Part shown: positions 2,230 to 50,054 of the stretch, piece after piece | Numbering within the stretch: the stretch's first letter is position 1 | How the letters are laid out: each line of letters begins with the position of its first letter | From: Catajapyx aquilonaris | Taxonomy: Eukaryota | Assembly: GCA_000934665.2 (NCBI GenBank) | Contig: KZ538317.1 | Coordinates: 1-64,000, forward strand | DNA length: 64,000 bases | Reading direction: 5' to 3' | Made by a program: the position numbers and the translations under genes | The notes under the pieces: generated by a model | What the model was told of the DNA's origin: nothing | The model's input: only the letters and a program-made list of their open reading frames with translations | Database searches by the model: none

Positions 2230-2272
2230 ATGTCTGACCGTGAGAGTGGAGATGACCAGCCTCAGGCGCAAA
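2230..2272 (+). CDS. Pur-alpha: Pur-alpha-family protein, first coding exon (MSDRESGDDQPQAQ)
   Basis: acatcATG start; 14 codons + 1 nt, then donor GTACGT (phase 1), matching the phase-1 acceptor at 49939. The MSDRES..DDQPQ start resembles arthropod Pur-alpha N-termini as I recall them. Confidence 0.8.
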
Positions 2273-4296
2273 GTACGTTTTCGTTTGGTGGCCCGGGAGA
2301 ATAAGAGTGTGTGTGAGAGTGAGTGAGTATGAGTGTGAGAGAAGGGTTGGGTTCAGAATAGGGGATTTCAATGGTAGTGTATGTGGTGGGGAGGGGGCCT
2401 TGCAACATAAGGGAATGTGAGGATGTGTGTGTGTGTTAGACCAGGGGCGTTTTCTCTGTGACTTTGGCCCTGGCCACGTAACCTGCCACTTTACTACTGC
2501 AGGCAGGCTGGATGGGACATGCTGCGCTGTTGCGGAGCATTTCTTGTCCGGTTTTCAGCCATGTTTTGCTTCTTAGCTGTCGCTGTCAAGTGTGCTGCTT
2601 GCAAGGGTTTCTTGTTTAGTTCTTAGCATGTTTGAACGGGATCGTTGCTTTGCCCCCTCAAATCTGTAACAGAATAGTGGTCGCGCAGTTGTTTTGAGCC
2701 GTAGTGTCACTTTGCAGAGAGGAGTCGGGGTGATGTGAAGGACATTTGGTGTGACGATCGGTGTGGTCCGTCGGTGATGTCCGACATGCGTAGTGACGAT
2801 TCACAGGATGAGGATAAAGCTGCAGGTATTGTTTGAAATGGGGTGGGTGAAGGGTGGTGGGATGTATGAAGTGAAGGTGTCTTGAATCACAGAGCATGGA
2901 TCAAATGAACATCGAGTATGCAGTGATCCCAAGTGGTGACAGTGCATTATGAAGCCTAGCTTATTTGTCACCCTGTAGTCACATTGGATCACCTGGTGTT
3001 TTAAATTATGACTGCTGTTCATGTGGAAGTAGCGTTTAGGTGTGATCCTCCCCATTTGTACTGTACCAATATGGTGGTTAGGGCTAGCCCTAGTGTCAAG
3101 GACCAGATGATGCCTTTGAAGAGGCGGTGTGGGGGTGGTGTTAGCCAGGTTGATGAAACAATGGCTGGCTGTGGCCCTAGCCTAGAGGTACAGGGCTCCG
3201 CTGCTTTGGCAGGTGGAGAGGGAGGGCATGAGAATGCATCTGCAATGCTAGTTGACCCATGCATCATTTAAACAATGCCCTGAAACCTTTCCTGCAATGC
3301 TGAAAGAGTGAGATTTGTAATGTGTGATGTTAATTCTTTCCTGGTTATTATCCAATGTAATTAGAGATACTTGTAAGTGATGGGAGTGTGACCATTAATG
3401 AATAGCCTCAAGTGTTGCTATTCCATATATGTTGTAGGTGTCGCAGAAGACAAAGTGAAGCATTACGTAATAGTTGATATTCACATTCAAATTCCATATT
3501 CTAAGCTACAGAGAATCCCAAGTACATTATTATTGTAAGATTGAGGGTACAAGTGAGTTAATACTGTGTGAGAAAATCAGTGACATGGAGGTTTAGTTTG
3601 TCCATCCATCATGTTGCACTTTGACATGTAATAAATGTTAGAATCTCGACATGGGAGAGTCGTGAAATTTTACCAGAAGTAATTAGAATATTATTTTATA
3701 GAACCATAGGCCCTGCATGTGAAGGCTGCAGGACTTGTTTCAAATAACTAGGTTGGCTATTAAGCACATTATTGTGCCAATCAATTCTGGTTGGGTAGGA
3801 AAATGAGCTAGTGGAAAATATGAAAATTAGTGAAATGAATTGTGTGGAAGGCCTGTAAGCTTATTCAAAGGGCACAATATAAATTTTTTTCTGTAGTGTA
3901 GCGAAGGTTGCAAGATGACTGAACTATTCATTTGAGTGATGAGGTTGGGAAGGGGATTTGCAACTAGTATTGAGTGATATTGTGACAAAATAGGAGCCTG
4001 AGAGTTTATAGCCAGGAGGCTCTGGTTTATCTTAATTCTAGTTTACAGTGATAAAGCATATTCCTAGTAGCCTGACAGGATTTGTTTATAATACTTCAAA
4101 GTAGTGTAGGGTAAGATAAGTCATCAGTGAAGCAATTTATGTACGTGGTGGTGGTTAAGGGGAAATTCATGGATACTTTTGTATGTCTCTTACAAATAGT
4201 AATTGGCTGAACTTTGTAAGACAGCCTGCCATCATAACTGTTAATTATGTGAAGAAGCACTGGCTTTATATTTGATAATTATTCCTAAATTAAGAT

Positions 4297-4550
4297 GGCA
4301 CGATGGTGTAGTGGTTATCACCACAGCCTTCCACCTCTGAGGTCCCGAGTTCGATCCCCGGGTCTGACAGAGGACACTTATGGAAAGAGTTTCGATGGGT
4401 TCTCTCCGTATTCGCGTTGCTTTTCTCGGGGCTCTCCCATTTCCTCCCACTATCAATACCCATCACATGACAGGCAGTCAATAAAGACAGTCTATTAAAA
4501 GATGATCCCCTAAGAGGCCCAAGGAGGCCTATAATGGGGTATCCATTATA
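4297..4550 (+). mobile_element. tRNA-derived SINE, family A
   Basis: A box TGGTGTAGTGG and B box GAGTTCGATCC. Body and tail (GATGATCCCCTAAGAGGCCCAAG) match the minus-strand copy at 36377-36624. Confidence 0.8.
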
Positions 4551-6410
4551 ACAAATTACTATGCAGGATGTCCCCAGTCTACCGGCGTTACGATACTGAA
4601 AATGACCATAAGTCAGATCCCTGAGGAACATAGCATAAAGATGCTGCTCCAACTTATCCCTTACGTCATGTGTGTTTGTTTACATGCACGGAAGAAGGTA
4701 GTTTCCCACTTATTTATTTAGTATACCGGTACAGTATTTATGTTGAACTTGGTGCGCAGAAGTGATTGAAAGTGAAGGAATAATTATAAATCACCCTGAT
4801 AGAGAGCTCGGGAGCCCGTTCGTAAGTACGGATACCGTAAGTAGGGACTTTCTGTATTTATTCCTATGTTAGACTTAGATATTGCTCGATACATTTACCG
4901 TCAACTGTATTGTAAGGCAAAAATTTTTGCTGATGGTAGGGTGTATGCAGTGTGATTCAGTTCAATGTCTGTAATTAGTGATTCTTGTGGTACAGAACAG
5001 GGGTTATCATATAAGGAATTCCAATAGTTAATTGAGAGGATATCTAGCCTAGTAATAATAGTAATGGTTAAAAATTATGCATCTTTGGGCTCTTAGGGGA
5101 TTCTCTGTTTAATGTTCAACTTGATTCATTAGCTGCACTCTGTGATGTATCCCGAGTTCCATAGGTTGAGTGGAACACATACTAAGACACAACCGTGCTT
5201 TTGTAGCAATTCCAGGCTGCTTCTGTAATTGGTCAAACTCAATCAGGATTTGTTTTAAATAGATTCTCAAAGTAGATGTGGTAGAAACTATAGCTCTAGA
5301 CAAGTGGGTGTTATGTTTGGGCCATGTATTTGGCTGCACAGAAATATTGCCAATATGGATGCATTGAATATTCAGCTGAAGGCAATGCTTTTCAAATACA
5401 ATTCTTCTGCAATGGCATCAGCATGTTACTTGTGGAAATGGGCAGTTTTTCACAAATGGTTGCTACCAACCTATGGCCCCAATTAGCTATTTCAGCACAT
5501 CTCAATGGTGTCTTCACCTCATCACCATACAGTAACATGAGCCACTACTTGAAAGCCCAAATTTTTCAGGCTTATTGTAATTCCTTGTGGATACAAATAC
5601 TTTGCTCTCAATTCTGACTGATGAGCAAGCCTGTCAGCCTGATATTAGTTACTGATATTTTTGATGGCATGGAAATGTAAGATAGAAACTGATTACTAAT
5701 AAGCAGCTTAGTTTTAAAAAAAACTACTAGCTAATGCAGATACTGCCACGGGATGGCATTGCACATGTGGTAATGATTTGCATATTAATTTATGATGAAG
5801 TAACATGGTATTCTGATAATTATGCAATGTGTAAAATTGTAAGGTATAATAATGACATATATTTTATTTCATTGTAATGTATGTTGTACACTTTAATGTA
5901 ATAAAGTATAGCTATAGTGTGATGGTATTGAGCTGGGGTCTTAAGAATTTTTGAGTAGGATATTTATTGGTTTTATTTGATGTGCAGTGTTGAAAACACT
6001 TGCAAGCTTCAAGTTGCAAATTGCATACAAAAATAATACTTAGTCCCATTTTAAAAATGTGATGCTGCAAAGTTATGGAAGTTTTTACTATGAGGCTTTT
6101 CTATTTCTGTACTGGAAATTCAGAAAATGGTATGTTATAATTACGCATACTTATGAAAGTTTTATAAATGCTCTATTATTGCACGAGCTTATGACACACA
6201 TCTTCCCGCCAGTTCCTGTTTAGCATGTTCATCTGGGGATGAATGAAAAATGAATGCATTGCAGTAGTTTTATCTGTGAGACATTTCGAATAACTCACGT
6301 GAAACCTCCTCTGTGTACATTGCATCAACCTGGTTACACCATCTGTGATGTCTTGCTTTGTTGTATGCCTCAGTGGCAGCTGCCTCTGCTTTTGAGATAC
6401 CTTTTAGATA

Positions 6411-9222: not shown

Positions 9223-9223
<1 letters not shown>

Positions 9224-9273
<50 letters not shown>

Positions 9274-11810: not shown

Positions 11811-13516
11811 GTGAGCATATGACTTTTTTACTCAGTGGGACCATAGAATCCAAGCTATTATTTTTAAAAAGTGGCATGGAGACCTCTTATGATGCATCAA
11901 AACCAAAATTAGATTGTATTCTCTGCCTCCCACTATTTGTGTTGTGGCTTGCCAGGTGCTATGCATGCAAAAAATTCCGCATTAATGAGAGCAAAATGTG
12001 TAATTAACACCTTGAAAAATGTATAATTCACGTAGTAGGGGTGGAATCCGTTGGAGAGTAAGTTACATGTTGCAATAATTTATGGCTGGTAGGACAAGCG
12101 TGGGGCATGCTAAAATTGTATGAAGGGCGCTTAGATGTTAGAAGGAAGAAAATGTTCTGTCATTTAGGTATGTCAAGCCATTAAAAGTGGACTTTTTATT
12201 TATGAATACGCAAAATTTGGGCAGGAAGACGACGATAATAACATGAATGTGGTGAATGATGATCGATTCTTTGACATAATATATAACGGTTGAGAAAGTC
12301 ACACATTGGAGTTTTTTTTGTTGTTGTAAAACCCTAGGAACACTTAAAACGATTGTGCAACTGGGAAATTTTGGCTTGCCACGTTATATGTTGACTTGAC
12401 TGTACATTAATTTCATGGCGAGAGTGACTGGAATGAAATAAATTTGTACACCTTGAAATCTAGAGCCATGAACCTTGATGATCAGTGCCTTCACGAACCT
12501 TGTGTAAAGAAGCCATTTATCATTGATTGTAATGTATTGTAGATCGTCTCCTTCTTTCTCGCCCTAGAAGAATGATGAGTGCATTTCGGAGCTGCATCAT
12601 TTTGTCACACTGCACGCAAAGCTATTTGTTCCCGCACGGAATTGTGATGCTATAGTGTTGACAACATTTGTTCCGTTGCTGGAATTCTTGAGCTTGAATA
12701 GGACTGTACTCTAATGGAAACGAGCAATCTTTGCGTGGAGAATGAAATTTCGTAGAGGACTTCCATGGCGGGAAACGAGAGGGTGCGCAAGCACGTAGGA
12801 CCACCTTACCGAAATTCCTCCTTTTGCCCCTACCTATACATGTGACTTTAATTGGCCTTTTGCCTTGGCTGTGACCGCAACTTCCGGCCAGATTGGGGCA
12901 AAGTGGCGCATATGCAGGCGGCCACAGGGCCACTGACCTTCCCCTTGGAAAATGGCCAGTATGGTTGGGGAAGGTGGGTGGGGAGGTGTCGAGGGTGTGA
13001 TTTTTGGATTCCGGTACGACAGAATGGAAGTTCCTGCGCTGTTATTAGGCCCTCAACTTTCCAACCCCAATACCCCAGGACCAGCGAGAAAAAAAGGAGG
13101 GGCCAAAAAAAAAAAGTTACAATAAATACCTTGCCATTGGCGATTTGGCTGAGCAGTGATGCATTTTCTGGCCCAAGTGCAACCGGTCTGGCTGCACTTG
13201 CGGAATTTGGGGCCTGTTCGACAGGGAAGTTGGACTTCTATTTACATAACGTTTTATTTTTTTACATCATTTTTTCGTGCAGGCTCTGGAGCATTCCAAT
13301 GAATGGAATGGCTGGAATTTATACCGCAGAGGATGTGCGGAAAATATCGAAGTGTGAGCGGAATACTGTATATGGAGTGTTTTTAAAAATTAGTTTCGAA
13401 TCCGATGGAATGAGCTTTCGAATGCAAACATCAGGTGCAGTACATGTGGCCTGTTCATAGATTCCAAAGTTTTATTTTTGCTCTGCTGACTTTTTCTGAA
13501 TGGTGCGGGGGGGGGN

Positions 13517-13667
<151 letters not shown>

Positions 13668-32200: not shown

Positions 32201-32328
32201 GGGCTGGCAAGTTTGTGTGTGCAATTTCGTATCTTTTGGGTGTCACTGACGTCACAGAGTTAACCTCAAGTTCTTTTGGTAGACGTCCCGTTTCGGAAGG
32301 AAATGTGCCCTATGATCAGAGAAAGGTG

Positions 32329-32455
32329 ATGGAAGGGGAAGAGACCCACCTCTTGGGAGAGGGAGGATATGGAGGGTCGGAAGATGGGGGAATCCAAGAC
32401 GAGGGTGCAGAAGGGCACTGGCCGATGGAACGGATGCAATACTGGTATCCTCCAG
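32329..32455 (+). CDS. Candidate alternative first coding exon of the Pur gene (MEGEETHLLGEGGYGGSEDGGIQDEGAEGHWPMERMQYWYPP)
   Basis: gtgATGG start, 42 codons + 1 nt, donor CAG|GTGGGT in phase 1. The peptide is acidic and Gly-rich. Confidence 0.45.
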
Positions 32456-35617: not shown

Positions 35618-35702
35618 ATGTTGTACTTCGATGGAAGGGATGGCGTGGCATCCAATGGCGCCAACGCGTGGTTCAATCGGGACATGGAGTGGACGGGCGA
35701 GG
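35618..35702 (+). CDS. Candidate alternative first coding exon of the Pur gene (MLYFDGRDGVASNGANAWFNRDMEWTGE)
   Basis: ataATG start, 28 codons + 1 nt, consensus donor GG|GTGAGT in phase 1, at the end of a CpG-rich patch. Confidence 0.5.
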
Positions 35703-36056: not shown

Positions 36057-36125
36057 TGTGCCATGCATTTTCATACAACTTTGTTGAGATTGAGATTATG
36101 CACATGCTTACCCTATTAGTATATA

Positions 36126-36624: not shown

Positions 36625-39600
36625 TTCGTTAATCCAGTACTGCACAACAGAAAGCTTAAAAAGTATCTCAACTGAGTTAGTACTGGCAATAATGCAAGGC
36701 TGGTTTTCGTATACGCGTGACTTGCAGTATACTTACAGTATGTTTCATATGCATAATATCTTATTATTTGTAAGACTACCCCTCATAGTTGCTGACTACC
36801 CCTCATAGGGAAATGTCGTGATGATGATGATGATGATGATGATTATTATTATTATTATTTGTAAGAAAGTAATCAATTATGGGGAAGAAATCGTGGTGTA
36901 GGCTCTACACGTGTAACGAGGGTGTTGGGAAACATGTATAGATTCCAGGAAGACATGCAATAACGCTATGACAAATGCCCTTCCAGGTGCAGATTGCACC
37001 TGGCCAGTTCATTGCGGAAGCATTTCCGGCGTATTGTGTAGGTCAGCTTTTATAAGGTAACTTCAACGAATTATACCGGATGGAACAAAAGTTAGGCTTA
37101 CAGCTCAGATCCATATCTGAAAATTTCTCTGAAGCTTCCTTGCGCTCCATTTTCTGTCTTGGAAGTTGGCAGATAGGTGTACAGTTGTGTTCCAATAATT
37201 GAAGTGTCCATATTAAATGGTTAACGATTAAAAACCCTAAACCTAAGGTAATTATTATGAAGCACTTGCTTTCACACGGTTAAGTTTAGGTGTTATCTCA
37301 AATATTTTCTGTTGATATTATGTTGCTTTGAATCATTCGTTCCGACCCTGATTTGTTTGAGTGGGAAGGAGCCGAAGCAAATCCGGCTATCGCGCTATAA
37401 AAAGAGATACAGATCCATGGATAGATGGAGATAGAAAACGAAGACAGAAAAGGCTGTGGCATCTGTCATTGTATCTCTCTAACCAAACAAGACCTTTCTG
37501 GAATGGGTGACCCTGCCAATAGACGAAGCTGTAGACCAATATAGGTCACGGGATTGTCGGAGAACACGTCACCACGGGATGGAGGAGTTACCATTGGCGG
37601 GAGAAATAGAATTTGCACTTAATTACGGAGATTAAGGCATTGCAAGTGATCCAGTTTTACCCATTGGTACTTGAGGTCAATGGCTGAACCCATGGTTTTG
37701 ATAGCCCATATGAATAATTTCTTAATATTGCAAACACCTTAGGACGATCATTTTCGACTCTTTATACGGTGAAATTAAATCACTATTGTAATTATTGTAT
37801 ATGGACCGGAATTGAGATATTTTCGCAGGTGGCAATTTTTCATCACCTGCATCTATAATGTTACCTGCGGTTACCAGATGATTTCCATCACTCGTTTCTC
37901 ATTTATCCTGACTGCTATTGCAACCCGCTTGACTTTCTCAGAGTGCAGCCAGAGTAGTACGTAATCCCGGGTGCAGCCAGGAAAAGTGAAGCTGCCTCTT
38001 GCTTGCCTAGGCGGTATATACATATTACGCGGAGTTTTTTGAGCTGTTGACAATTGCATGGAAGCCAAATGAATTGCGGGCTAATTAGCGGTTTGGCGAT
38101 ATAAGTCTGGGTAGTGTACAGTGGTTATCCTGTAGCACGCTGATACGATCGCTTAATTTCTCACGCCCGCGGGAAAGTTGATGGTTGGCGTGTCTGCCAC
38201 TTGACGGCGCCAACGCGTAGGACGTGCTCTGGGCCCACCTGACTGTTAGCGCCATGGCCACTGGCTGGACCCGGTTCAGCAGCGAGCAGAGCATGGTTCA
38301 GGGAGGAGTGTTAATAACCACGACGGCGCGGCGGTGCCCAACATCGATTTTTTCTTAGCCCCGTTAAGGTAGCATTTCTGTGCAGAGGATGTTCCGGTTA
38401 TTTTACTTCAGGCAATGCTCGCTGTTTCATCGAGATGCTACTGAGCTAGTACTGTACAAACTTCTTCTTGTGCAGATGCGGTTTGATATGTTTAAAAATT
38501 GTTCTCCCCATCGAGAAAGCCATATGATTGCATATCTGTTAATGACTGATGTAATTAAAATGGATGTCGTCCCATGTGAAGGGCCCTTTGTCATATCGTT
38601 CAGCAGTTGTCCTGTATAAGGTCTCCGTATTTGGCCTCATCTGGACGAGAGGATGAGTGATTGGGTCATATTTGCACATCGAAAGGCGTTGTATTTTTTT
38701 TGGCAAATTATTGTATAATGCTGTATGTGGACACATTTTGTATGATGCTTGCTTGCTGAAAGCAATCATTTGCCCGATCATGACCTTGGAACACCTCGCA
38801 CCTCCCCTCGCATGTAAATGATGATGCCCAGGGGTTACGATCGATCGCGAAATCCGTCCGCACCCAACCCGAGAGCTCTGCCAGGGAGTTTAACATTGTT
38901 GGTACGAGTATTGGACTTACCGTATAATCCATTTATCGTCACCCACAACTGGAATCACATTTTGATTAATTTTTATACCACTGTTTTATCTACATTTTTG
39001 GAGATGCTGGATGTCGAGAACTCAAAACTGATTGGCTCGCTGATTGGCATACTAAGGGTTAGGTTTTCAGTGCTGCATATACAGGTCAAATGAGAGCCTC
39101 ATGAGTGACATGGCTCTACTGTACTGTACGGTGTCTGGGGACACAGCAGTTTCCCTGATATAGGCTACAGTATTACAGTATTCTCTCCATCGGGATGTTC
39201 CCCTCGTGGCAAATCCAAACCTCCTCATTATTCTGTGTGTGCAGATGTATAGATTTTCCCCACTATTACTGTTTGCTACTAAACGAGTATGCAGGGTGTT
39301 CCTCTGCCCGAGTTGACTATCCGAATATATAGGAGACGGCGAAGAATTGATGCGGATTAGTCTCACAGTCGCAATTGGGGAACACCCAGGCCTTCTGCCA
39401 GTCTGCACTGGAGTTTGAATGCAACCCAAGGGTGACAAATCCATCAACTTTTTGATAACTGATATCAAGGTGACTCCCGAACTTAGAACACCCTGTATAC
39501 ATTGTAGAACGTACTTTCCTAAGTAAAGCTCCATTACAGCAAGACGTCAATAGAACTACATATAGTTACTATATCGCTGCAAAAGATTAGGCGATTTTGC

Positions 39601-41503
39601 ACTGAAGAGAAATTCAAATTTGTCTGATCTTTTTGAGCTATATATAATACAGTAAAACCTATGTGAAGTTGGACACGCTAATATGTTGGACATCTTCCTA
39701 TACTGTATGTTGGACATTTTTGGGACCACCATCGACAAGTTTCACTGTGCATAGCATGCTGTTTCGTAGAGCATATCCGAGCATATATCTACTCATTTGC
39801 ACCCTGTTGACCTATAGATTGCCACTGTAAGTGTCCACAACAGTGACGATGAAGATGCAATGATAATGAGCAAAAATTCAACGCTATATTACGGGGGTAT
39901 TTAGAGGGATATTTTTTCCGTAGTATATAGGAAGTTATTCACTGACAAGGGCGAAGAACACTATTGGTACAGCATATGGATCAGTCAGCAGTTGCTTGCC
40001 TTGAACTGAAACGACTGATGTTTGGCTGCAGGTCTTCTATCATTGCCTTACAGGTGCATCTAACGTAGTCCAGTAAAATATTTAATAAGATACGATTACT
40101 CGAATTATTGTGTTGTTGGTGAGATATTTGAAGACATTTCTGACTTGAAGGGACACTGCTGTTTAATGAATATCTTATCACTTTGAGACCAGAGGGGTTC
40201 ACTTAGATTTTTTTTGCGTACCCGGACTAACCCTCGGACTCACCCCGGACTATACCTACGAAGGTGTACACTGACTACCCTTAGTGAATAACCCCTCGGT
40301 ACGCCCAATTTTTAGTAGTTAGTGTACAATACAGTCTTTACCAGTTGCACGGTGATGACTAGACGATATCTGGAGTTCATAGTATGTAGGTCAAATTATT
40401 TATTACCGATTTACCTCAGCACTCATTGTAAGCAGCCAACTGCATACGTCCACGATCATGCTTCAACTCAACTTTATTTGTGGCAATATGTTACAGTTGA
40501 CAAAATGACGAGGGACAACTGTTGGGCTGCTAAAAGAAGTGCAATGCACGCGGATAGAAGTACGTGTTGTTTACGGAGTGTAACTGCCAGAGACACGTGA
40601 ACATGGCGAGCGTCAGTGACCAGCAATGCGGAATGCGGACACTCACGTTGCCAAACTGGAGCTCCAAATGACGCGACCAATCTAAATGGCCAGCTGAAGC
40701 AATCACCACTATAGCTGGCTCTTATGAAGCAGCCGTGCGTGCGAGTATGTAAGGTCGCTGGGCTGTCCGTATGACATGTCTCGTTGCCGTCTGTATCTGA
40801 CATTTTCGTTGCGTGGCGTGATGGCAGGCCAACATACAGCCTGGCTGGATTATAACACGATAGCACGTAATGTAGCATAGCCTATAGGTTTCCCAGCTGC
40901 AGGGACTCGGGGTAAAAATAGCGAGATATTGAGAGACACGCAGAGTTCAATGAAAGCGGCGGGAGCGCCAGGGGAATTTTATGTGTCGACGACCGTTTTA
41001 CCTGCAGTCTGGAGCTATTTTTACTGGTCTATTGTTGAAGCGATTGTGTAGTCACTTCCGCCGATAAAAGGTGGCGATGACTTCTTTACTTGGGATGGGA
41101 ATCCTGGGGAAAGGACCGATTTGATGGCCGGTTTGCGTGACGTGCCTCTTAGTAACGGATAGACTTGATTTTAGTCATTATTCTCAGTAGGCGTAGATCA
41201 TTGGCCATTCCTGCTACGTTCTACGGACAGGTCTGGCAGATGTAAACGGTGAGTTCTGCTCATGAATGCAATTTGTCATGTAAAGTGTGATCTACAAAGG
41301 TACTTGGCTTATATTATTAGGCAATCAGTTCTTGCCACTGTAGGTCAATGTATTGTGAAGAGTACCGTATACATAAGGCTAGGACCCGTAGGCAATGTGT
41401 CTCTGGACAGTTACTCACGGCTCAGTGCATGCATTCTGTCCACTTTGGATTTGGACCTGCCAAGTTTTTGTTTGGCACACTTATCATAAAATGTACACTT
41501 TAA

Positions 41504-41794
41504 CCCTGGAACCGTGACGTGCCTGAAAGTTATACGTTAACCGTGACGTGGGTTCTTTTAGGACCCCATCATATTTTAATTTTTATTAATTTTTATATAA
41601 TACTTTTCAATGTATTGACTATATGCAATCATTCTTTGAACAATGGCTAAAATGATCGCTAATTCAAAATAAACATGCACTTCCTGTTACTGTATATACT
41701 TTTTTTTTAAGGCAACAGTTCATTGTAATTATCATTTTAGTGCATTTTAATTCCTATGATATTCTAAAAGACCCCGCACGTCACGGTTCCAGGG
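41504..41794. mobile_element. piggyBac-type MITE
   Basis: TTAA|CCCTGGAACCGTGACGTGC ... GCACGTCACGGTTCCAGGG|TTAA. Confidence 0.9.
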
Positions 41795-43689
41795 TTAATG
41801 TAAAGGGGAGTTCCTCGATTTTGTTTTATCTTGTATACAAATATCCGCATGTCGACAGGAGTATGCAGGTCCTTCATCTCGACTGATGCCTTTGCACAGG
41901 TTTCAGTTGCAGTGATTCTGTGTAGGAGGCAAGTTGAACATGTTATACTGTAGTCTACTGCTTCGTTTCAAAGAAAAGTTGTTTCGATGTGTAAATAACC
42001 TATCCTACAACAAATGTCTTTGCACATGATGTTCAAAAGGGACTCGTATCAAAATGATATCAAAAAATAGAGAAGAATGGTGGAAACCTATCCCATGCTG
42101 CTGCTGCTGCGTAATAACCCACCACCCTCCACCCCTATTCCCTCCCAGCACAGCAAGCCCTCCCTTGCCACTGCAACGACCCCCACTTCTCCCCCAGCCC
42201 TCTCCTGTGCGAGCGGATCAATGAAAACGCATTGGAAAATGGAAGTCCTACAAACGGCCTTGTCCCACCAGCCTCCATACCTGGTTCCCAGTATGCTTCC
42301 TTCCTCCTCCACACACATACTCGCACACACGCTCGCGCGCTTGCGGTTCCTGGTTGGACCAACTTATGCTCCGAGTTCTATACTCATCTCACGTACCGGT
42401 CTAGTAGCTCACACGGGGCTGTGTTGGAAAGGTCAATTATTTTGTGGGGGTTAGATTGTCAACAGGTGGCCCATTCTAGGGACCGATGCTTTCGTGTATG
42501 TGGGCTCTTTATAAAATGCGGGTGATTTTTCTTGGATGCACAATGTAGGGCGGAGGATGGAGAGACTTGGTGAAGAAGAGACAAAGTCAATCGATAAGTG
42601 GAGATGCCGCCTTTCGCCTCCTGCTCCATGTCCTTCCTACAATCCTACAATTTTACTATGTTGGGGTTGGTCGCCGCGGCGTAGAGAACAGCTATCCGGA
42701 GTAGACTCCGGGATGGAGCCTGATCGATCCGGGCTGTGCCCAAGTACGGGCCGCCTCGTTGTTCCAGATCAGTACTTCCTGTCTGGCGCATTTCAAACCG
42801 GTTTTCCGAATCAATTCTGGGTCCATATTGGACCTTGCAAAGGGAGGACATTAAAAGAAAGGGGAGCGGGTCGGTGTTTTTCTGTGACCAAGAACGACGT
42901 AGTTATGGCGCAGCAGTGATTTATTTTCGGCGATTACATTTCATGGTGCAACAACCCACGAAATGTAGAATTGCGGATGACCCCAAAAACAAATTGGCAA
43001 CGCAGCGTCGGGCTATCACCCAACCACCCCACTCTCTCTCTCTTCTACCATCCCCCCTCCCCCGCCTACCTCTCCCTGTTATAGTGGAGCGCACTAGCGG
43101 GGAGGAGGGGGGGGGGCTATGGGGAGTGGGGGAGGGGGTGGTCGGCGTCGGCTGCGTCGTCGTTCATGGATGCCCGTTCATATCAAAATTACTTCTGCCA
43201 TTTCCCACCTGCGAACCTGCCCTGCATTTTCAGTTCATGGTGGGTCTGACAGTAGGGAAGTTTTGCAAACTTGTGAGGTTTTTTTTGAATATTAGGTATC
43301 GATACGGGCTGTACAGGAAGAATGTATTGCGCGTTTTAAAGGACCTATTGCCTTTTGAATACTAACTAGATCCGACCTGCAGTAACTGAAATTGAACCTG
43401 CACATCTGAATTGTGCGTGTCGTCCTTTTATGAATGTAACAGGTCGCACGAGCATTATAAATTACGTCGCTGTTAGGTACATAGATGTGCCCGCCCCCGA
43501 TTTTTGCTGAATCTTTCCTTGGGACCTATTATTTCACATGGAACCACGAAGGAGGTCTCCTAATTTGCAGTGGTGCAAACCCTTCCTTTTTTTGGTAGGT
43601 ACAGTATATAAAAAGGAGTACAAAGCTTTGCATTGAGGCAGCATCTGTTAGGATACAGTAGGCTGTGGATTGCAGCAGTGTTTTTGGCG

Positions 43690-44360
43690 GCGTCAGGCTG
43701 CCAGTGGAGCAGTGGCGGTGGGCAGTGGCAGGGTTGGGCGTCGGCGGGCGTCGGGAAGAGGGGGTGGAGTGGCGGGGAGGGGTGGAGTGGAGGTAGCAAG
43801 CCGACAGGCAGAAGGGTAGGGCAGGGCAGGGCAGGGCCGGGCCGGGGCACGACAAGCCAGGCTAGGGCAGGGCAGGGCAGGGCAGGACGGAGTGATGTAG
43901 AGGGAGTGGAAGGAAGGCGAAATGGGTGGCTGCGGGGACGACGACGAAGACGACGAAGACTAGCGAAGGTGGCCCACCTTGGTGGACTGGAGGAGGACGG
44001 AGGACTTCATAAGCCAGGATTTCAAATAATAGTGGCTGGTGCTGGTGCAGAGAGGCGGGAGAGGGAGGGAGTGGAGGGAGGCGGGTGCTGCTGGTGCAGG
44101 TGCTGCTGCATGGGGCAGCATCGCGGGCGTCGGAGGGCGTGGGTGTGGGTGTGGGAAGAAGAGTGGGAAAGGGAGAGGGTGCGGAGAAGAGGAAGTGGTG
44201 GTGGTTGTCGTGGTGGTGGAGGAGGAGGAGGAGAAGATTGTGGTGGTGGTGGTGGTTGTAGTGGCGGTGGCGGTGGAGGCTGTTGTGACGGCGGTGGTGG
44301 TGGTGTCAGTAAAGGTGCTGGGCGTAGAGACAGGGGTGGCGGCTGGGTGGTGGAGGGGCA
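43690..44360 (+). repeat. G-rich low-complexity tract: (GGGCA)n and (GGN)n
   Basis: GGGCAGGGCAGG repeats at 43815-43885 and GGT/GGA/GGC triplet runs at 44195-44305. Confidence 0.9.
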
Positions 44361-44417
44361 GGGCAGTCTTGCTCTCCCCGACTTGGCCGTCGTCGTCGCC
44401 ACTTGCGGGCTGGCGCC

Positions 44418-44511
44418 ATGTTCCGGGGCCGCCCCGGGCCGGCCGCTGCCTTCGGGCCTCCTACCGAACCGGATTCCGATCTGGAAGATCGTTCCGATGG
44501 AGGAGATGGCG
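44418..44511 (+). CDS. Candidate alternative first coding exon of the Pur gene (MFRGRPGPAAAFGPPTEPDSDLEDRSDGGDG)
   Basis: gccATG start, 31 codons + 1 nt, donor GCG|GTGAGA in phase 1, within the most CpG-rich part of the window and 5.4 kb from the shared acceptor. Confidence 0.65.
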
Positions 44512-45714
44512 GTGAGACAAATCATAAAGCGAACATGTTCAGCCCTTTCAGCACGCACGTCTCCCTTCCCTATCCGTATGTAATGTCGCCTGCATCAGAA
44601 ATTTAACCATATTTATTGCAACGTGAGATGTAGATCACGCTGGTGCTGCGCATCAACAAATGGGTGGCGATATCGATCGGAATAAACTGCGCGATCACAC
44701 TATACTAGCGCCCAGTTTGCCATTAGTTCCGATCAATGCCGCGAACTGACAGCAATCCCCTTTGTATTGCATAGTTTTCTAGCAAACTAGGGCGATGGAA
44801 TGACCTCCATACTTGGTGAGCAGGAAACTGCAAACCTCTGATGCTGGCATATGGGCTTCGAAATAGTGGTACACTACTCCCGATTATCCGGGCTAATGGA
44901 TGCACGGGTGTGGCCGGATTATCCGAAAACACGGATAATCGGAAAATAGTCCTAGACACCGTAAAATGAGGTATTCACAGGTAAGGAAGGTGGATAATCC
45001 CAGTTGAACCTATATGTTTGTCTACTTCTCGTCTACGCATAGCGTAACTTAAGAAGGAACACCCTCCTTTGAAAATATGTGGTCTAGACGTCATGACTTC
45101 AAATGACGTTGCGTTCCCCCGAAGGTCATCATGCATTCGAATGTCAACCTAGAACCTAATGAGGGTGACCCGCGAGGATATTGCCCTGCGTCACTCGAAT
45201 GGCGCATAAATCTCTCTTAAAAGTATAAGCATGAATAAATTGCTTTGAACAGTCCTGGTGTAGAGCCTGCGACAGTTTTCACCAATCCTTCAGGCGCGAC
45301 AGTTTCCCCCCATTCCCACCTCCCGTTTTTAGAGGTAGGCTACCTTGTAAGACTGTACAGTTCACTCCATTCACAAATCACAATGTAAGTTATACCTGAG
45401 TTATGACTGTAGCAATCGCGTTCCAGGACACATTCATTATACGTACGAGTAATAGTCCAAGAAACGTATGTGCGTCGGGCGGATAAAGAAGTGACTTCAT
45501 GGCCACAATAATTGTGAGTCCCAAATTATCTCCAGCATATATGCACTATCGGAATTTTTCAGCGTATCATATAAATGTGATATAAATTATAAATGTCCAT
45601 GTCAGGTACAGAGTAGCATAAAAATGTAACCTTCGGGGCATAGTTTACGACAGACAGTACCTACCTACACCAACGGGTAACCTGTCTCGAAAATTAAAAA
45701 TACTGCAAGTAATC

Positions 45715-46044
45715 GGGAGGCGCGGTGGCCCAGTTGGTAACGACTCGGCTTGCTGAGTGAAAGGTCCCGGGTTCGATCCCCGCCCGGGAGTTCCCTTTCG
45801 CCTGCGTCAGGAGGGTCTCTGACCCGCGCCTTGGAGGCGTCTGGCAACCTAACCTCCAGGGAGACTGCCCATGCACCCGTGTCTCCTGGACCCCGAAAAA
45901 TCCCCATCCTTACCTCATGTCCTTTCTTCCCTGCACACGGAGTTTGAAGAAAATACGAAAACTGATTTGAAAAATTTGATGGTGTTCCTCCCCACAAAAG
46001 AGGGCCTCTGGTCATATCGCGGTGTAACACACACACAAAAAAAA
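45715..46044 (+). mobile_element. tRNA-derived SINE, family B
   Basis: A box TGGCCCAGTTGG, B box GGTTCGATCC, (CA)n/A tail, imperfect TSD ACTGCA(A/C)GTAATC. Confidence 0.85.
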
Positions 46045-46427
46045 CTGCACGTAATCATGAAATAGGTTCTACCTTTTAAGATAATCTTATTGTCAAATTG
46101 AAACTAGCTCTCAACAGGTCATAGAGTCTTTCGTGACAGCAGTTAGCATCAGGAGAACAGCAGAATATTATATTCGTGTTCTATACTGTACACGCCAACT
46201 ATCACGCGTGCAATGAATGTTTTCCCGTGTTTAATTTATAATAGCCACCTTCTAACTCTTCGGATCGGAAATGGTTTTACGCATTGCGTCATGCTAATAG
46301 GAACATGAAATATTTGAAATCGCACAGTATACAGTGCAGTCAGTAACACCAGAATTTTCTTGAGGCAAGGCAGATAATTATGTTGGTCTTACAATGTGTG
46401 CATGGGTGACAGTATAATTATTTAGAC

Positions 46428-46717
46428 CAGGGGATCTTAACCTGGGGCACTGCGAGCAGAGGTGCCACATGTACCACAATTCTGGTATTCATGTCATAAT
46501 TTCCGGGTCCGTACCATGTACCATAATGGTACACAAGAAATACCATAATTTCGTCAAGTCCAATATTACGGGGAGACGGAGTGGCGCTGCGGTAACGTAC
46601 GCGCCCACGGATGTTAAGGTCCCGGGTTCGAACCCAACCACTCCTGGTGTAGGGGGTGCGACAAGGACCAACTGTCGTCAAAGGGGTGCGGATGCCTGAA
46701 AAGGTTAAGAACCACTG
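46428..46717. mobile_element. hAT-type MITE carrying a tRNA-like SINE head
   Basis: TIR CAGGGGATCTTAACCT / AGGTTAAGAACCACTG, 8-bp TSD ATTTAGAC on both sides, internal TGGCGCTGCGG...GGTTCGAACCC at ~46571-46640. Confidence 0.8.
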
Positions 46718-46929
46718 ATTTAGACCAACATGGGTTACTGTGCATCTCTTCTGCCTGTGAGCATCGTCTATTACGTTTTGATAATGTTATCATTAACAAC
46801 TCATAACAAATATCCTATAAATCACGCTACACTTCTAGCAACCCTGCAGCTGTTAGGGGGCATGCCTGTATGGTCTTATACTGTATCGCCAATGACAACA
46901 GTTAAAACCTATTACCGGTATAAACTATA

Positions 46930-47432
46930 CAGGGTGAAGGGAAACTCGCGGATAATCGCCAGGTAGACCAATAGTACTCGCAAAACTAATATGGGAATGT
47001 GCAATTAGTTTTTGGCTCCGTTGCGTGGTTAATGCGTACGGCGCCTTTAAAGTGTAGAGGGTCGGATGACAAAGTGCGCGGGTGTCGGCTACACGCGGGC
47101 AGGTTGCATCCGCAGTTGGAGTCCAACTCCGACTCCAACTGCGGATGCAATAACCTGCCCTTGTGTAGCCGCCTTTACTCGGACGGGATTTGATCGTCTG
47201 TTACACGTGGACGATGTTTTACGGGCCCAAGGCTGGATTGTTCAGAGGCCCTCGCCTCGAGCTGACTTTTGCTTCTTGAAACTGGTGGAGCGGATGTGAC
47301 GTCACGAAACTTTGACGGCGCCGTACGCATTAACTACGCAGCGGCGCCCAAAACTAATTTCACATCCCTATATTAGTTCTACGAGTACTCTCAGCCTATC
47401 TGGCGATTGTCCGTGAGTTTCACTTCACCCTG
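46930..47432. mobile_element. Tc1/mariner-type MITE
   Basis: TA|CAGGGTGAAGGGAAACTC ... GAGTTTCACTTCACCCTG|TA with ~115-bp arms and an internal hairpin at ~47100-47160. Confidence 0.88.
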
Positions 47433-49619
47433 TATAAAGATTATTCTAACAAGATAGATGGCTCCGAACGCCGTAATCGAGTTTGATGTCCGGATATTAT
47501 ATGATTAATTCAGAGTATGTTGGTCTTAGAATAACCCAAGGGATCGCCCTCTCTGAAGAAAATGCACCATCTGTACACGCGCGCGCGCATTACTCGAAGT
47601 TCATTTATGCAGACAAATAATGCAGCGGAAGAGTTATCTGTCTGTGGCTTCTAGGTGTGCACAAATAATTCGTAATTTATTGACGTGTGCAGGTACGAAT
47701 GTCCTCCGGGATTTAGGGTTCTTGCGAATATCTCAGACGATGTTACTCTTCTAGTTTACTTATTTGGCGGTTTCAGCGTCATTACGGAGATGAAAGTTTC
47801 TTACGTTTTAAATTGCAGTTCACCCGGTTCATCCTGCCTGTCAGGCAACCTTCCAAACATAGCTGCTTCATGGGTCACCTGGGGTGCAGGATGACCAGCG
47901 TGTATTGTAAATTGCGATTCTAAACTTAGCAAGCGATTATTATCTCCGCAGTGATGCAGAAATCGTCGAAATTAACTCGAAATGACAATTAATGGACACT
48001 AGGTCTGATCAGTGCAGTGGCGCATTGCACGATATTGTCGAAAATATGCATAGTCCCGTTTACAAACGGCATGACAGTTCCCGTAGCGCCCGTAGCCCCT
48101 TATCGGCGAATGGGTAAACAGATGATGGCCGCGTCCAAAGACGAAGTGGGTAGCGGCCAAGTCCTCGGATTTTCATCTTGGCCTGAAGAGGAGTTGTAGC
48201 ACAAGTCAGAGAGCTGGAGAAGGCCGCGTATAAATTTTATCCTGTACAAGCACCACTGTCGATATCGTTTCCCTCTTCCATCACCCTCCCAGTTTCCATT
48301 CCCATCTTTCCATCCAGCCCGATTCTGGCTCGTCGCTGGAATATTCTGTCACAGCATGCAACTGGTAATTTGAAAAATTGGCTCAGCGGATAAGCCAATC
48401 CCATTGGCCGTTGGGCTAGGCAGGTTACCAGGAGATGTGGCAGGTGTCGAGGGCGATGCCGAAGAGCTGATGCAGTCGTGATCGCAACTTTTGACCGTTT
48501 CTTATGCGTCGTCGAATTAAAAAACCGACCAAAACTTTGGAATCAGGTTTTTTTTTTTAATGTAAATTTTAAATTGACAAGTGATAATTTTAAGAGCCTT
48601 TGTACTGTTGCTGTGTCAGGAAACGTATTAATATCTGAAATATGACGAGGAAAGGGGATATTCTGTTGTTTGTGGTAAGGTATAGTGAATTTGTTTTTTT
48701 TGTCACGGTCCAATATTATCAAATGGAAGGGGAGGGGAGAGAGAGGGAGAGAGAGAGCAGTGTGCACCTCTTGGCCCCAGACTGACACTCCCTCAATAGG
48801 CCAATTCAAGTCATGATGCTGGAAGTGAGTTTATGAAAATTAACATATTACCACCATAAAAATGAAGTCAAAAGTTGCCCAAGTTTTTTTTACAGCAATT
48901 TCGTCTTGTGCAACTTTGAAAGAACCTGCACACATTTTCCACTTCTGCACCTGATCAATTAACTGCTTGCTACATTTTACACCCAACATGTTACAATTGT
49001 TCCAAGGATGGGGCTGCATATTACACTTGCCTGGCCATAATAACATTGGTAAATTACTGTAAATTAAAACAGTGCAGATTACCAGAAAGATGGATTGATT
49101 TAACAGTACAAAAGCCCTTGATATGTGTATTGGTGTTTGGGTATAACTAACCTAGATTCTTTTGTTGAATTGTCCAACAATGGTTTTTTTTTTAACCGAC
49201 TAGGATATTCAGGAATTAAGTATTGTATACCAGTCACAGGGGTCAAAATATTCTGATGCAAAGGTTCAGTTTACACTCCAAAATTGTTTTCTGAATTCCA
49301 AAAGGAGCCTTGGCGTGTCATACTTTGCATGCAAGTTGATCCTGTTTTTTAACATGGCTAAACCCGGTAATTAAAAATTAAAGTACTCCAAGTAAAAAAA
49401 TTTGCACTCCAGATGCAAGTTTTGAGTGCAAACAATTTATGATTCCACCCATGCAGCCAACTAGGGTGGTGGTGATTGCATCTCAAGCCATTTTGATTTC
49501 AATGCCTAAATGCTTACCCCATTCCTACAAATAAGTACTTGCTGATCATGCTTTTGTTAGAACCTGCTGCATGCACTTGGGGGACCCCATTTGGAACTAC
49601 TGTAGTAGCTTGTTTGAGT

Positions 49620-49756
49620 GGGGCTGTGCAGATGGGCCAAGCCCAGCCGCGGCCGCGACGGTTCACACCTGGCAAGCCATGGCCAGGCCACGGCTTACAA
49701 TGTAGGCCAACTTCCTGGAAGTTGGCCAGGGCCGCGGCCGCCGTCTGCGCGGCCCC
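49620..49756. mobile_element. GC-rich PIF/Harbinger-like MITE
   Basis: GGGGCTGTGCAGATG ... CGTCTGCGCGGCCCC with 3-bp TSD AGT. Confidence 0.65.
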
Positions 49757-49938
49757 AGTGACTAATGTAAACCAGAATTTAACACTACTTTTATGGGGTA
49801 TTGACATCCAAGGCATTGCATGTATTTGACACAGTGTATGGTCATTTTGCTCTCCTTAATCGACTAGGTGTTGTGATTTTGTGCTGCTGTATTTGTGCTC
49901 TGTCTCAGGATAAAAATGAGTGTTTCCTTTCTCTCCAG

Positions 49939-50054
49939 GTCAACCCCAGCAGGGGGAGCAGGAGCTGGCCACCAAAATGCTCCAGATCCAGTCCAAAAGG
50001 TTCTATCTGGACGTCAAGCAGAATAGAAGAGGAAGGTTTATTAAAGTAGCTGAA
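49939..50054 (+). CDS. Pur-alpha: Pur-alpha-family protein, shared exon (start of PUR repeat I)
   Basis: TTTCCTTTCTCTCCAG acceptor; [38 protein letters not shown]; donor GTGAGT. Confidence 0.97.

What the first reader, a model, noticed from the sequence alone, without database searches (positions are those of the whole stretch)
2230..50054. Array of phase-matched variable first exons feeding one constant Pur-alpha body
Seen: four ATG-initiated, stop-free segments (2230-2272, 32329-32455, 35618-35702, 44418-44511) each end one base into a codon at a good donor (GTACGT, GTGGGT, GTGAGT, GTGAGA). That is the phase needed by the shared acceptor at 49939. The four peptides are unrelated in sequence but D/E/G-rich, and most lie in or beside a CpG-rich patch. 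Weaker phase-1 candidates are 13299-13353, 32500-32521 and 48071-48113. Known: variable-first-exon/constant-region loci exist (clustered protocadherins, UGT1A), whereas the vertebrate PURA coding sequence is intronless. Inference: promoter choice swaps the disordered N-terminus of this RNA/ssDNA-binding protein. Caveat: a random ATG-donor pair is phase 1 one time in three, and I searched for that phase.
Basis: partly seen in the sequence, partly recalled or inferred. Interest (0 to 1): 0.8.

Follow-up and report, generated by a model that had tools for sequence, protein, structure and literature searches.

The report
Pur-alpha gene with two conserved first exons
This is an arthropod Pur-alpha gene in which two of the proposed alternative first exons match first exons of other arthropods' Pur proteins, while the other proposed ones look like chance, so it is an ordinary alternative-promoter gene rather than an exon array.

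Summary
The window holds a six-coding-exon arthropod Pur-alpha/beta gene that gives a clean 247-aa ORF. As a set they are no more than chance: ATG-to-donor segments fall in phases 0/1/2 as 39/34/30.

Two segments are real by conservation. 2230-2272 is the canonical first coding exon; 43 of 162 homologue N-termini hit it at E<=0.01. 32329-32455 matches a second N-terminal class annotated in Hymenoptera and a louse. That class ends in IQYW(Y/C)PE-G exactly at the exon junction. It scored z 4.0-7.5 against 15 of 15 such peptides, and the motif occurs once in the six-frame window.

35618-35702, 44418-44511 and the three weak candidates have no support.

The one spliced transcript contig available confirms exon 2 joined to exon 3. 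It enters 49939 from an unlocated exon ending in CAG. That exon lies outside 31000-49935 and is not the direct 2272 junction.

Verdict: an alternative-promoter gene with two, perhaps three, 5' exons. It is not a protocadherin/UGT1A-type array. The same isoform classes are already annotated in other arthropods.

The parts
2041..2051 (+). Exact AAGATGGCGGC motif about 190 nt upstream of the exon-1 ATG, inside the largest CpG-rich patch at the 5' end (1401-2900). It is a likely core-promoter mark. The name YY1-type motif is recalled and was not tested.
   Evidence: the only exact copy in the window. Allowing one mismatch there are 3 copies against 0.78 expected, and 7 of 100 shuffles reach 3. CpG patch.
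2230..2272 (+). Canonical first coding exon (coding part). It encodes MSDRESGDDQPQAQ plus one base (A), so it ends in phase 1, with donor AAA|GTACGT.
   Evidence: 43 of 162 homologue N-termini hit it by tblastn at E<=0.01, best 3.4e-8. 77 of 200 stored homologues carry this MSD-type start.
2718..2825 (+). It could be a 108-nt in-frame phase-1/phase-1 cassette after exon 1 (acceptor ctttgcag|AG). It could instead be a first exon starting at ATG 2777 (MSDMRSDDSQDEDKAA plus G). Its donor is CAG|GTATTG. It is one of the candidates for the CAG-ending exon in the transcript contig.
   Evidence: The peptide resembles MSD-type N-termini (z 2.9-3.4 against P0101, P0075, P0117). Against the window's own exon 1 the score is only z 1.9, p 0.053, and there is no DNA similarity (p 0.47). 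No tblastn hit at E<=1 from 162 queries. Unproven.
32247..32254 (.). Palindromic TGACGTCA 75 nt upstream of the ATG of the second first exon. It is a possible promoter element. The name cAMP-response element is established knowledge, and binding was not tested.
   Evidence: 3 copies in the window (17563, 32247, 47297) against 0.54 expected; 1 of 100 shuffles reaches 3. Sequence context.
32329..32455 (+). Conserved alternative first coding exon (the QYW class). It encodes a 42-aa peptide ending ...HWPMERMQYWYPP plus one base (G), so it ends in phase 1, with donor CAG|GTGGGT.
   Evidence: Local alignment z 4.0-7.5 against 15 of 15 distinct class-2 peptides, with at most 2 of 300 shuffles reaching the score. 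tblastn: 4 of 162 queries at E<=0.01 and 10 of 162 at E<=0.1. It is the top hit of a class-2 HMM among 3969 six-frame ORFs, at a borderline E 0.038. The motif [IMLV][QE]YW[YCHF]P occurs once in the six-frame window, and 1 of 300 shuffles gives any hit. The motif ends at the donor just as it ends at the exon-2 junction in the homologues.
35618..35702 (+). It is not supported as an exon and is most likely a chance open segment with a good donor.
   Evidence: No tblastn hit at E<=1 from 162 queries. Against the class-2 peptides only 1 of 15 scores above z 2 (P0182, z 4.3-5.0), and that is the best of 160 N-termini compared. Against 32329-32455 the score is z 0.7, p 0.24.
44418..44511 (+). It is not supported. 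It lies at the 3' edge of a 2.7-kb GC-rich patch where all frames are open.
   Evidence: It is not among the 12 listed hits of the class-3 HMM. The best of 160 N-termini gives z no higher than 2.4. The one tblastn overlap (P0067) is a glycine-run match at 44245-44445 in another frame. Open frames.
49939..50054 (+). Shared exon 2, which begins PUR repeat I (...[38 protein letters not shown]). Its acceptor is in phase 1.
   Evidence: Transcript contig record 7 lies on 49936-50054 and joins 50054 to 50193, GT..AG.
50193..50295 (+). Exon 3.
   Evidence: Joint 50054>50193 and the piece 50193-50297 of record 7. The last two letters fit both the intron start and the exon-4 start. Splice dinucleotides.
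55629..55747 (+). Exon 4 (PUR repeat II).
   Evidence: Pfam PurA PF04845, 59.6 bits against a cutoff of 25. Sequence. AG/GT flanks and the open joined frame.
55815..56042 (+). Exon 5 (PUR repeats II-III).
   Evidence: Pfam PurA, 112.9 bits. 99% identity to insect Pur proteins, with 636 of 666 candidates at E<=0.001.
56857..61919 (+). Last exon: coding to the TGA at 56989-56991, then a 3' UTR of about 4.9 kb with AATAAA at 61903-61908.
   Evidence: frame; homologues of the C-terminal exon. The 3' end is inferred by arithmetic. The 5835-nt contig minus 206 upstream letters and 566 letters of exons 2-5 leaves 5063, which ends at 61919, 11 nt past the AATAAA.

Best explanation
The locus is an arthropod orthologue of Pur-alpha/Pur-beta, a protein with PUR repeats that binds single-stranded DNA and RNA. 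It has six coding exons and a 47.7-kb first intron.

At least two alternative first coding exons, each with its own ATG and each ending one base into a codon, are spliced to the common acceptor at 49939. The first is the canonical exon at 2230-2272 (MSDRESGDDQPQAQ). The second is an exon 30 kb downstream at 32329-32455, whose product ends in the conserved motif MQYWYPP-G directly ahead of PUR repeat I.

Which exon is used is most likely set by promoter choice. The two exons are 30 kb apart, and each has a plausible promoter mark: AAGATGGCGGC at 2041 and TGACGTCA at 32247. The result is two proteins with the same nucleic-acid-binding body and different short N-terminal tails.

A third 5' exon ending in CAG is used by the one assembled transcript available. 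It lies outside 31000-49935 and has not been located. The remaining segments in the finding are chance ATG-to-GT open stretches.

Shown: the sequence features, the conservation of the two N-terminal classes, and the exon 2-exon 3 splice. Inferred: the joining of 2272 and 32455 to 49939 in this organism, separate promoters, and any functional difference between the isoforms.
For: Gene model: the joined exons give one open 247-aa frame with AG/GT at every internal boundary. It is 90% identical over 245 aa to P0004, and the core is 96-99% identical to Timema, Ladona and Bacillus rossius proteins. PurA Pfam hits on exons 4 and 5.

Exon 1: 43 of 162 homologue N-termini hit it at E<=0.01.

Second first exon: z 4.0-7.5 against 15 of 15 class-2 peptides. 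The motif is unique in the six-frame window, and 1 of 300 shuffles gives any hit. It is the top HMM hit. The motif ends exactly at a phase-1 GT donor, and in the homologues the same motif is followed by G and the start of exon 2.

The two classes are isoforms of one gene elsewhere: Nasonia vitripennis X5 and X2, and Prorops nasuta X2 and X4, on the same contigs. Looser relatives of the motif sit at the same place in hemipteran, Daphnia and decapod isoforms.

The junction residue changes with the last base of the upstream exon, as phase 1 predicts: A+GT gives S and G+GT gives G.

Spliced RNA exists: contig record 7 joins 50054 to 50193.

Chance accounts for the rest: phases 39/34/30, and no homologue for the other five segments.
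Against: No read or contig from this organism shows 2272>49939 or 32455>49939. The only spliced contig carries CAG just before exon 2. That does not fit exon 1 (which ends AAA), and its first 203 letters lie on nothing in 31000-50999.

The class-2 HMM E-value is only 0.038, with an unrelated ORF at 0.079. The conserved stretch is about 11 residues. The comparison proteins are mostly automatic RefSeq models from one order (Hymenoptera), so the 15 comparisons are not independent.

No close relative of this organism is in the protein collection: the best match to the last exon is 73-77% identical at full coverage. Orthology of the exon therefore rests on a short motif plus its position.

The promoter motifs are weak evidence. 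TGACGTCA occurs 3 times in the window, and the exact AAGATGGCGGC occurs once.
Confidence: 0.72

Rival explanations
1. The full array: four or more promoter-linked, phase-1 first exons (2230, 32329, 35618, 44418, perhaps the weak ones), all used, making a variable-N-terminus locus.
For: All segments are ATG-initiated, open and in phase 1. 35618 and 44418 lie in CpG-rich windows. 44418 starts MFRGR, which is faintly like the MFKSR/MYRSR start of a third annotated class seen in 10 of 200 homologues. 35618 aligns in register with one class-2 peptide, P0182, at z 4.3-5.0. RefSeq lists up to 11 isoforms for some insect Pur genes, for example Frankliniella occidentalis X11 and Vespula squamosa X11.
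Against: There is no phase-1 excess: 34 of 103, or 10 of 36 at the stricter cut-off. There is no homologue for 35618, 44418, 13299, 32500 or 48071 in 162 tblastn queries at E<=0.1, apart from one off-frame glycine-run match. The class-3 HMM does not list 44418. The P0182 match is the best of 160 comparisons, and 14 of the 15 class-2 peptides give z<=1.7. Every frame is open around 44418. Ab initio Timema models carry five different, mutually unrelated N-termini ahead of the same exon 2, which shows how easily spurious phase-matched first exons are found.
Confidence: 0.07
2. One functional 5' structure only. Transcription starts at the 2.0-2.2 kb promoter, and every mRNA carries exon 1, with or without a cassette ending in CAG. 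32329-32455 is an unused relic or a coincidence in this species.
For: The only transcript contig has one path into exon 2, and that path is not the 32455 exon. The class-2 HMM E-value is borderline. 30 in-frame cassette models ending in CAG|GT exist in 2273-30999, including 2718-2825 right after exon 1.
Against: The ATG, the open frame, the phase, the donor and the full motif are all intact at 32329-32455, and the similarity extends over about 28 residues to Cephus and Nasonia isoforms. A relic would be expected to decay. Assembled contigs drop minor isoforms, so one contig cannot show that others are absent (tool note).
Confidence: 0.13
3. The dominant mRNA starts from a distal, non-coding or different first exon lying in 1-30999 or upstream of the window. 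Neither listed exon is the main one, and translation may start at the internal ATG of exon 2 (...ATKM LQIQ...).
For: The 203 upstream letters of the contig were not placed, and they end in CAG. There are 35 CAG|GT sites in 1-30999, one of them (17403) with a strong donor inside a CpG-rich patch. Two database proteins start at or near that internal Met: P0006 and P0035.
Against: Exon 1 matches the insect proteins at 13 of 14 residues (read from the sequences), which argues that it is translated. The ATG at 17393 would open an out-of-frame upstream ORF running into exon 2. P0006 and P0035 look like truncated gene models.
Confidence: 0.08

Closest known systems
RefSeq-annotated N-terminal isoforms of insect Pur-alpha/Pur-beta genes (e.g. 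Nasonia vitripennis X2/X5, Prorops nasuta X2/X4, Osmia lignaria X1/X5, Megachile rotundata X4/X5)
   Same: The same protein family and the same shared exon-2 start ([25 protein letters not shown]). The same two N-terminal classes are present: MSDRES... and ...IQYW(Y/C)PE-G. The junction residue varies with the upstream exon.
   Different: The window's second exon differs in its front half and has PP instead of PE. The third hymenopteran class (MFKSRIFQGDLSP...) and the insect cassette (KY..G..DFDS-G) were not found in the window. Those isoforms are automatic annotations. I did not see their gene structures or any paper describing them (listings only).
Clustered protocadherin and UGT1A variable-first-exon loci (features recalled from general knowledge)
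   Same: Several 5' exons would be spliced to one common downstream acceptor, with the choice made at the promoter.
   Different: In those loci the variable exons are tandem paralogues that encode the main functional domain, and they number about ten to dozens. Here there are two (perhaps three) unrelated exons of 14-42 codons that encode short tails. There is no similarity between them and no excess over chance.
Vertebrate PURA
   Same: The PUR-repeat body (PF04845) follows a short N-terminal tail that starts with a similar acidic M-S/A-D-R-type sequence (recalled).
   Different: This gene has five introns in the coding region, a 47.7-kb first intron and alternative first coding exons.

Membership tests
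PUR family (Pfam PurA, PF04845) | Match to the PurA profile above the curated cut-off | tested here: met
   Exon-4 ORF 59.6 bits and exon-5 ORF 112.9 bits against a cut-off of 25. All 120 listed homologues of exon 5 carry PF04845.
PUR family (Pfam PurA, PF04845) | Full-length collinearity with family members (three PUR repeats in order) | tested here: met
   The joined 247-aa frame aligns over residues 1-245 to P0004 at 90% identity, and over 212-230 residues at 96-99% to Timema, Ladona and Bacillus rossius proteins. The repeats were not delimited individually.
Gene with alternative first coding exons / alternative promoters | Two or more 5' exons with their own ATG, each compatible with the common acceptor and each conserved in orthologues | tested here: met
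   2230-2272 and 32329-32455. Both classes are annotated as isoforms of single genes in other insects.
Gene with alternative first coding exons / alternative promoters | Transcripts of this organism that join each first exon to exon 2 | tested here: inconclusive
   Only one run (X1) was offered. Its contig shows exon 2 joined to exon 3 and an upstream exon ending in CAG that lies outside 31000-49935.
Gene with alternative first coding exons / alternative promoters | A separate transcription start for each first exon | not testable with these tools
   Motif hints only: AAGATGGCGGC at 2041 and TGACGTCA at 32247.
Variable-first-exon / constant-region cluster (protocadherin, UGT1A type) | Variable exons are tandem paralogues of one another | tested here: not met
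   No self-similarity covers any candidate. 32329 against 35618: z 0.7, p 0.24. Exon 1 against 2777-2825: z 1.9, p 0.053. DNA of the latter pair: p 0.47.
Variable-first-exon / constant-region cluster (protocadherin, UGT1A type) | Many variable exons, more than chance would place | tested here: not met
   Phases 0/1/2 = 39/34/30. Only 2 of the 7 listed segments have homologues.
Variable-first-exon / constant-region cluster (protocadherin, UGT1A type) | The variable exon encodes the main specificity domain | tested here: not met
   The variable parts are 14 and 42 codons ahead of a 233-residue constant body.

The most novel reading that the evidence does not exclude
Pur genes of insects and crustaceans carry an ancient second promoter. 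Its first exon adds a conserved tryptophan-bearing motif directly onto PUR repeat I. The motif is ...IQYW(Y/C)PE-G in insects, with looser forms such as ...ISKWVNPIPPDPDD-G in decapods and ...LWAYWTSMGP-G in Daphnia. This tail would be a docking site that gives the isoform its own partners or localisation. In this genome the promoter carries a perfect TGACGTCA element, which would make the isoform signal-responsive. My four literature searches found no description of it.
Probability: 0.15. Interest if true: 0.5.

Novelty: new member of a known kind. Interest (0 to 1): 0.3.

Why it matters
Pur-alpha is a conserved RNA- and single-stranded-DNA-binding protein studied mostly in vertebrates, where the coding sequence has no introns and no such isoforms. 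If arthropods keep two promoter-specific N-termini over very long evolutionary times, the short tail ahead of PUR repeat I probably has a function of its own, such as partner binding, localisation or regulation. That function could be tested in flies or other model arthropods.

For genome annotation the case is also a warning. Phase-matched ATG-to-donor segments upstream of a phase-1 acceptor are common by chance, and here only conservation separated the two real ones from the other five.

Tried and rejected
RNA runs: no RNA holder was listed. Only X1 (kind unknown, assembled contigs) was offered.

Cover in X1: there was none over 32329-32455, 35618-35702 or 48071-48113, and 0.18 in the bin holding 44418-44511. 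Contigs drop minor forms, so this is not evidence of absence.

The cluster-member look-up for ten close homologues was switched off. I therefore could not check whether this organism's own isoforms sit inside those clusters.

Third protein search: residues 1-66 of P0024 found only P0024 itself, so the taxonomic range of the long N-terminal extension seen in P0024 and P0123 remains open.

Class-3 idea: I tested whether 44418's MFRGR start is homologous to MFKSR/MYRSR. An HMM built from 4 distinct peptides did not list the 44418 ORF, and local alignments gave z no higher than 2.4. Rejected as unsupported.

I tested 35618 as a decayed duplicate of the 32329 exon. Only one of 15 class-2 peptides supports it, and the two window peptides give z 0.7. 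Rejected as unsupported.

I tested 2777-2825 as a tandem duplicate of exon 1. The peptide similarity is marginal and there is no DNA similarity. I kept it only as a candidate for the CAG-ending exon.

Insect cassette (KY..DFDS-G), and the long N-terminal extensions of P0024 and of decapod isoforms: P0024's extension gave no convincing tblastn match in the window; no tblastn hit of any of the 162 N-termini (decapod and P0123 included) was inspected beyond the counts.

Nested genes or transposon proteins in the introns: 108 ORFs of at least 90 aa gave no Pfam family apart from PurA and two sub-threshold noise hits. Rfam found 0 families and ARAGORN found 0 tRNAs.

Literature: four full-text searches gave nothing on alternative first exons or promoters of an arthropod Pur gene. 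I saw listings and abstract starts only and read no paper.


Full report
WHAT IS THERE

The + strand carries a multi-exon gene of the PUR family. Reading the sequence and correcting boundaries with the laid transcript contig gives six coding exons:
- exon 1: 2230-2272
- exon 2: 49939-50054
- exon 3: 50193-50295
- exon 4: 55629-55747
- exon 5: 55815-56042
- exon 6: 56857-56991 (stop TGA)

Every internal boundary has AG/GT, and the joined frame is open for 247 residues. Exons 4 and 5 match Pfam PurA at 59.6 and 112.9 bits against a cut-off of 25.

Exon 5 alone found 636 proteins at E<=0.001 among 666 candidates. All 120 listed carry PF04845, and the best are 99% identical insect proteins. The full frame is 90% identical to P0004 over 245 residues. 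The core is 96-99% identical to Timema, Ladona and Bacillus rossius proteins. The organism is therefore an arthropod, probably an insect or a close relative. No close relative is in the protein collection: the last exon finds at best 73-77% identity at full coverage.

THE OBSERVATION

The acceptor at 49939 needs one base from upstream.

As a set they are not remarkable. On the + strand of 1-49,900, ATG-initiated open segments of at least 22 nt ending at a GT with a crude donor score of at least 2 number 39, 34 and 30 in phases 0, 1 and 2. At a score of at least 4 they number 16, 10 and 10.

The CpG argument is weak. The window as a whole has CpG o/e 0.65, and windows passing GC>0.5 and o/e>0.65 cover about a quarter of the upstream region. 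Around 44418 all six frames are open for 92-323 codons.

WHAT THE HOMOLOGUES SHOW

I stored 200 Pur proteins and read their N-termini up to the invariant start of exon 2.
- 77 carry an MSD-type start, MSDRESGDDQPQGQ and variants.
- 18 carry a start that ends in IQYW(Y/C/H)PE followed by G and exon 2.
- 10 carry MFKSRIF... or MYRSRVF....
- 61 carry something else. Many of these are ab initio models, such as five Timema proteins with five unrelated starts.
- 34 are fragments.

Several species have two classes annotated as isoforms on the same contig: Nasonia vitripennis X5 and X2, Prorops nasuta X2 and X4, Osmia lignaria X1 and X5, and Megachile rotundata X4 and X5. Alternative 5' coding exons feeding one exon 2 are thus an annotated feature of insect Pur genes.

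The residue at the junction varies with the upstream exon (S, N, R or G). That is what a phase-1 split codon predicts.

EXON 1

The peptide from 2230-2272 matches the insect consensus at 13 of 14 residues (read from the sequences). 43 of 162 homologue N-termini hit it by tblastn at E<=0.01. An exact AAGATGGCGGC lies 190 nt upstream, inside a CpG-rich patch.

THE SECOND FIRST EXON

The product of 32329-32455 ends in HWPMERMQYWYPP plus a G split across the donor. Cephus, Nasonia, Athalia, Cataglyphis, Prorops and the louse Polyplax have ...GWGDTMGKIQYWYPE-G and close variants at the same place.
- Local alignment against the 15 distinct class-2 peptides gave z 4.0-7.5 in 15 of 15, with at most 2 of 300 shuffles reaching the score.
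- By tblastn, 4 of 162 queries hit at E<=0.01 and 10 of 162 at E<=0.1. Eight of the ten are class-2 proteins. P0054 matches the acidic, glycine-rich front half, and I did not inspect P0192.
- A class-2 HMM puts this ORF first among 3969 six-frame ORFs. The E-value is only 0.038, and an unrelated ORF follows at 0.079.
- The pattern [IMLV][QE]YW[YCHF]P occurs once in the six-frame translation, here, and 1 of 300 locally shuffled windows has any hit.

The strongest point is position. The motif stops at a GT donor in the one phase that fits 49939, just as it abuts exon 2 in the homologues.

A perfect TGACGTCA lies 75 nt upstream of the ATG. There are 3 in the window against 0.54 expected.

THE OTHER SEGMENTS

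- 35618-35702 has no tblastn hit at E<=1. It resembles one class-2 peptide (P0182, z 4.3-5.0), but the other 14 give z<=1.7, and P0182 is the best of 160 N-termini compared. Against the window's own class-2 exon it scores z 0.7.
- 44418-44511 starts MFRGR, faintly like the third class. The class-3 HMM does not list it, and no N-terminus aligns above z 2.4. Its single tblastn overlap is a glycine-run match in another frame.
- 13299, 32500 and 48071 have nothing.
- None of the candidates lies in a repeat within the window.

TRANSCRIPT EVIDENCE

One run was offered: X1, assembled contigs, kind not on record, holding 0.36 of the sampled words of 49900-59899. I laid it on 31000-50999.

A 5835-letter contig (record 7, depth 20.8) lies with letters 204-322 on 49936-50054 and letters 323-427 on 50193-50297. 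It has a GT..AG joint from 50054 to 50193, so it is spliced RNA of this locus.

Subtracting 206 upstream letters and 566 letters of exons 2-5 leaves 5063 letters for the last exon. That ends at 61919, 11 nt after the AATAAA at 61903. The contig therefore looks like a near-complete mRNA with a 4.9-kb 3' UTR.

Two things about its 5' part matter.
- Its first 203 letters lie on nothing in 31000-50999.
- Letters 204-206 match CAG at 49936-49938 without mismatch, so the upstream exon ends in CAG.

Exon 1 ends in AAA, so this molecule does not join 2272 directly to 49939. The 32455 exon does end in CAG, but it would have been laid and shown as a joint, and it was not. The upstream exon is therefore in 1-30999 or beyond the window.

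There are 35 CAG|GT sites in 1-30999 and 30 in-frame cassette models after exon 1. The one I rate highest is 2718-2825. It is a 108-nt in-frame cassette 445 nt after exon 1, and it also contains an ATG at 2777 followed by an MSD-type peptide. Exon 1 plus this cassette would put the contig start at 2175, just after an A-rich run. This is unproven. 22021 and 17403 have better donors.

SURROUNDINGS

The 47.7-kb intron has no ORF of at least 90 aa with a Pfam family, no Rfam family and no tRNA. It holds short dispersed repeats, some at very high depth in X1.

HOW IT MOST LIKELY WORKS

Two promoters 30 kb apart each transcribe a short first coding exon. Each exon ends one base into a codon, and both splice to 49939. 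The products share the PUR-repeat body and differ in a 15- or 43-residue tail. An optional or alternative exon ending in CAG adds a third form.

The sequence features and the cross-species conservation are shown. The junctions in this organism, the separate starts and any functional difference are inferred.

COMPARISON AND NOVELTY

The locus works like an ordinary alternative-promoter gene. It fails the defining features of protocadherin/UGT1A-type clusters: the exons are not paralogues, they are not numerous beyond chance, and they do not encode a main domain.

The isoform classes are already in RefSeq annotation of other arthropods, so this is a new member of a known kind. Four full-text searches found no paper on alternative first exons or promoters of an arthropod Pur gene (listings only). 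The conserved QYW-type tail may therefore be undescribed in print.

LIMITS

- The comparison proteins are mostly automatic models from one insect order.
- The conserved motif is short.
- The cluster look-up and this scan's earlier notes were not available.

Noticed in passing
It is open in the phase that fits both exon 1 and exon 2, is 108 nt long, ends CAG|GTATTG, and has an internal ATG followed by an MSD-type peptide (MSDMRSDDSQDEDKAA). It is one candidate for the unplaced CAG-ending 5' exon of the X1 transcript.
   Followed up: partly
window 49936-50054 and upstream (record 7 of run X1): The only spliced contig enters exon 2 from an exon ending in CAG. Its 203 further letters lie nowhere in 31000-50999, so a 5' exon of this gene remains unlocated.
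   Followed up: partly
window 56992-61919: A long 3' UTR of about 4.9 kb is inferred from the contig length, with AATAAA at 61903-61908.
   Followed up: partly
window 36336-37002 and 45674-47007: Short dispersed repeats with very high contig depth in X1 (200 and up to 910). Contigs join 36618 to 46571 and join 36623 to 45774 on opposite strands, so copies of one expressed repeat family appear to sit in both orientations inside the first intron.
   Followed up: no
window 17563-17570 and 47297-47304: Two further perfect TGACGTCA palindromes, each in or beside a CpG-rich patch of the first intron (16201-17900 and 46901-47500). They could mark enhancers or further promoters.
   Followed up: no
window 13517-13665; 2100-2190; 17500-17530; 44190-44310: Low-complexity tracts: a GA-type microsatellite with many self-matches, A/G-rich runs just upstream of exon 1, a poly-G run, and GGT/GGC repeats ahead of 44418. 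They keep frames open and attract glycine-rich tblastn matches.
   Followed up: no
window 51666-51713 and single N at 1586, 8598, 13516, 30616, 33882: An assembly gap of 48 N in intron 3 and five isolated N. None touches an exon or a candidate.
   Followed up: yes
homologues P0149, P0151, P0153, P0154, P0160, P0163 (decapods): Decapod Pur isoforms carry proline-rich N-terminal extensions of about 110-450 residues (the stretch before the shared tail in proteins of 351-691 aa). These end in ...LRISKWVNPIPPDPDD-G right before exon 2. This looks like a much-expanded relative of the insect QYW-type tail.
   Followed up: no
homologues P0010, P0012, P0013, P0015, P0021 (Timema): Five ab initio gene models from congeneric stick insects have five unrelated N-termini ahead of an identical exon 2. 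Gene finders evidently pick spurious phase-matched first exons at this locus.
   Followed up: no
homologue P0148: A 1168-aa model named a kinesin-like protein (Vespa velutina) starts with the class-2 Pur N-terminus and carries PF04845 together with kinesin domains. It is probably a merged gene model.
   Followed up: no
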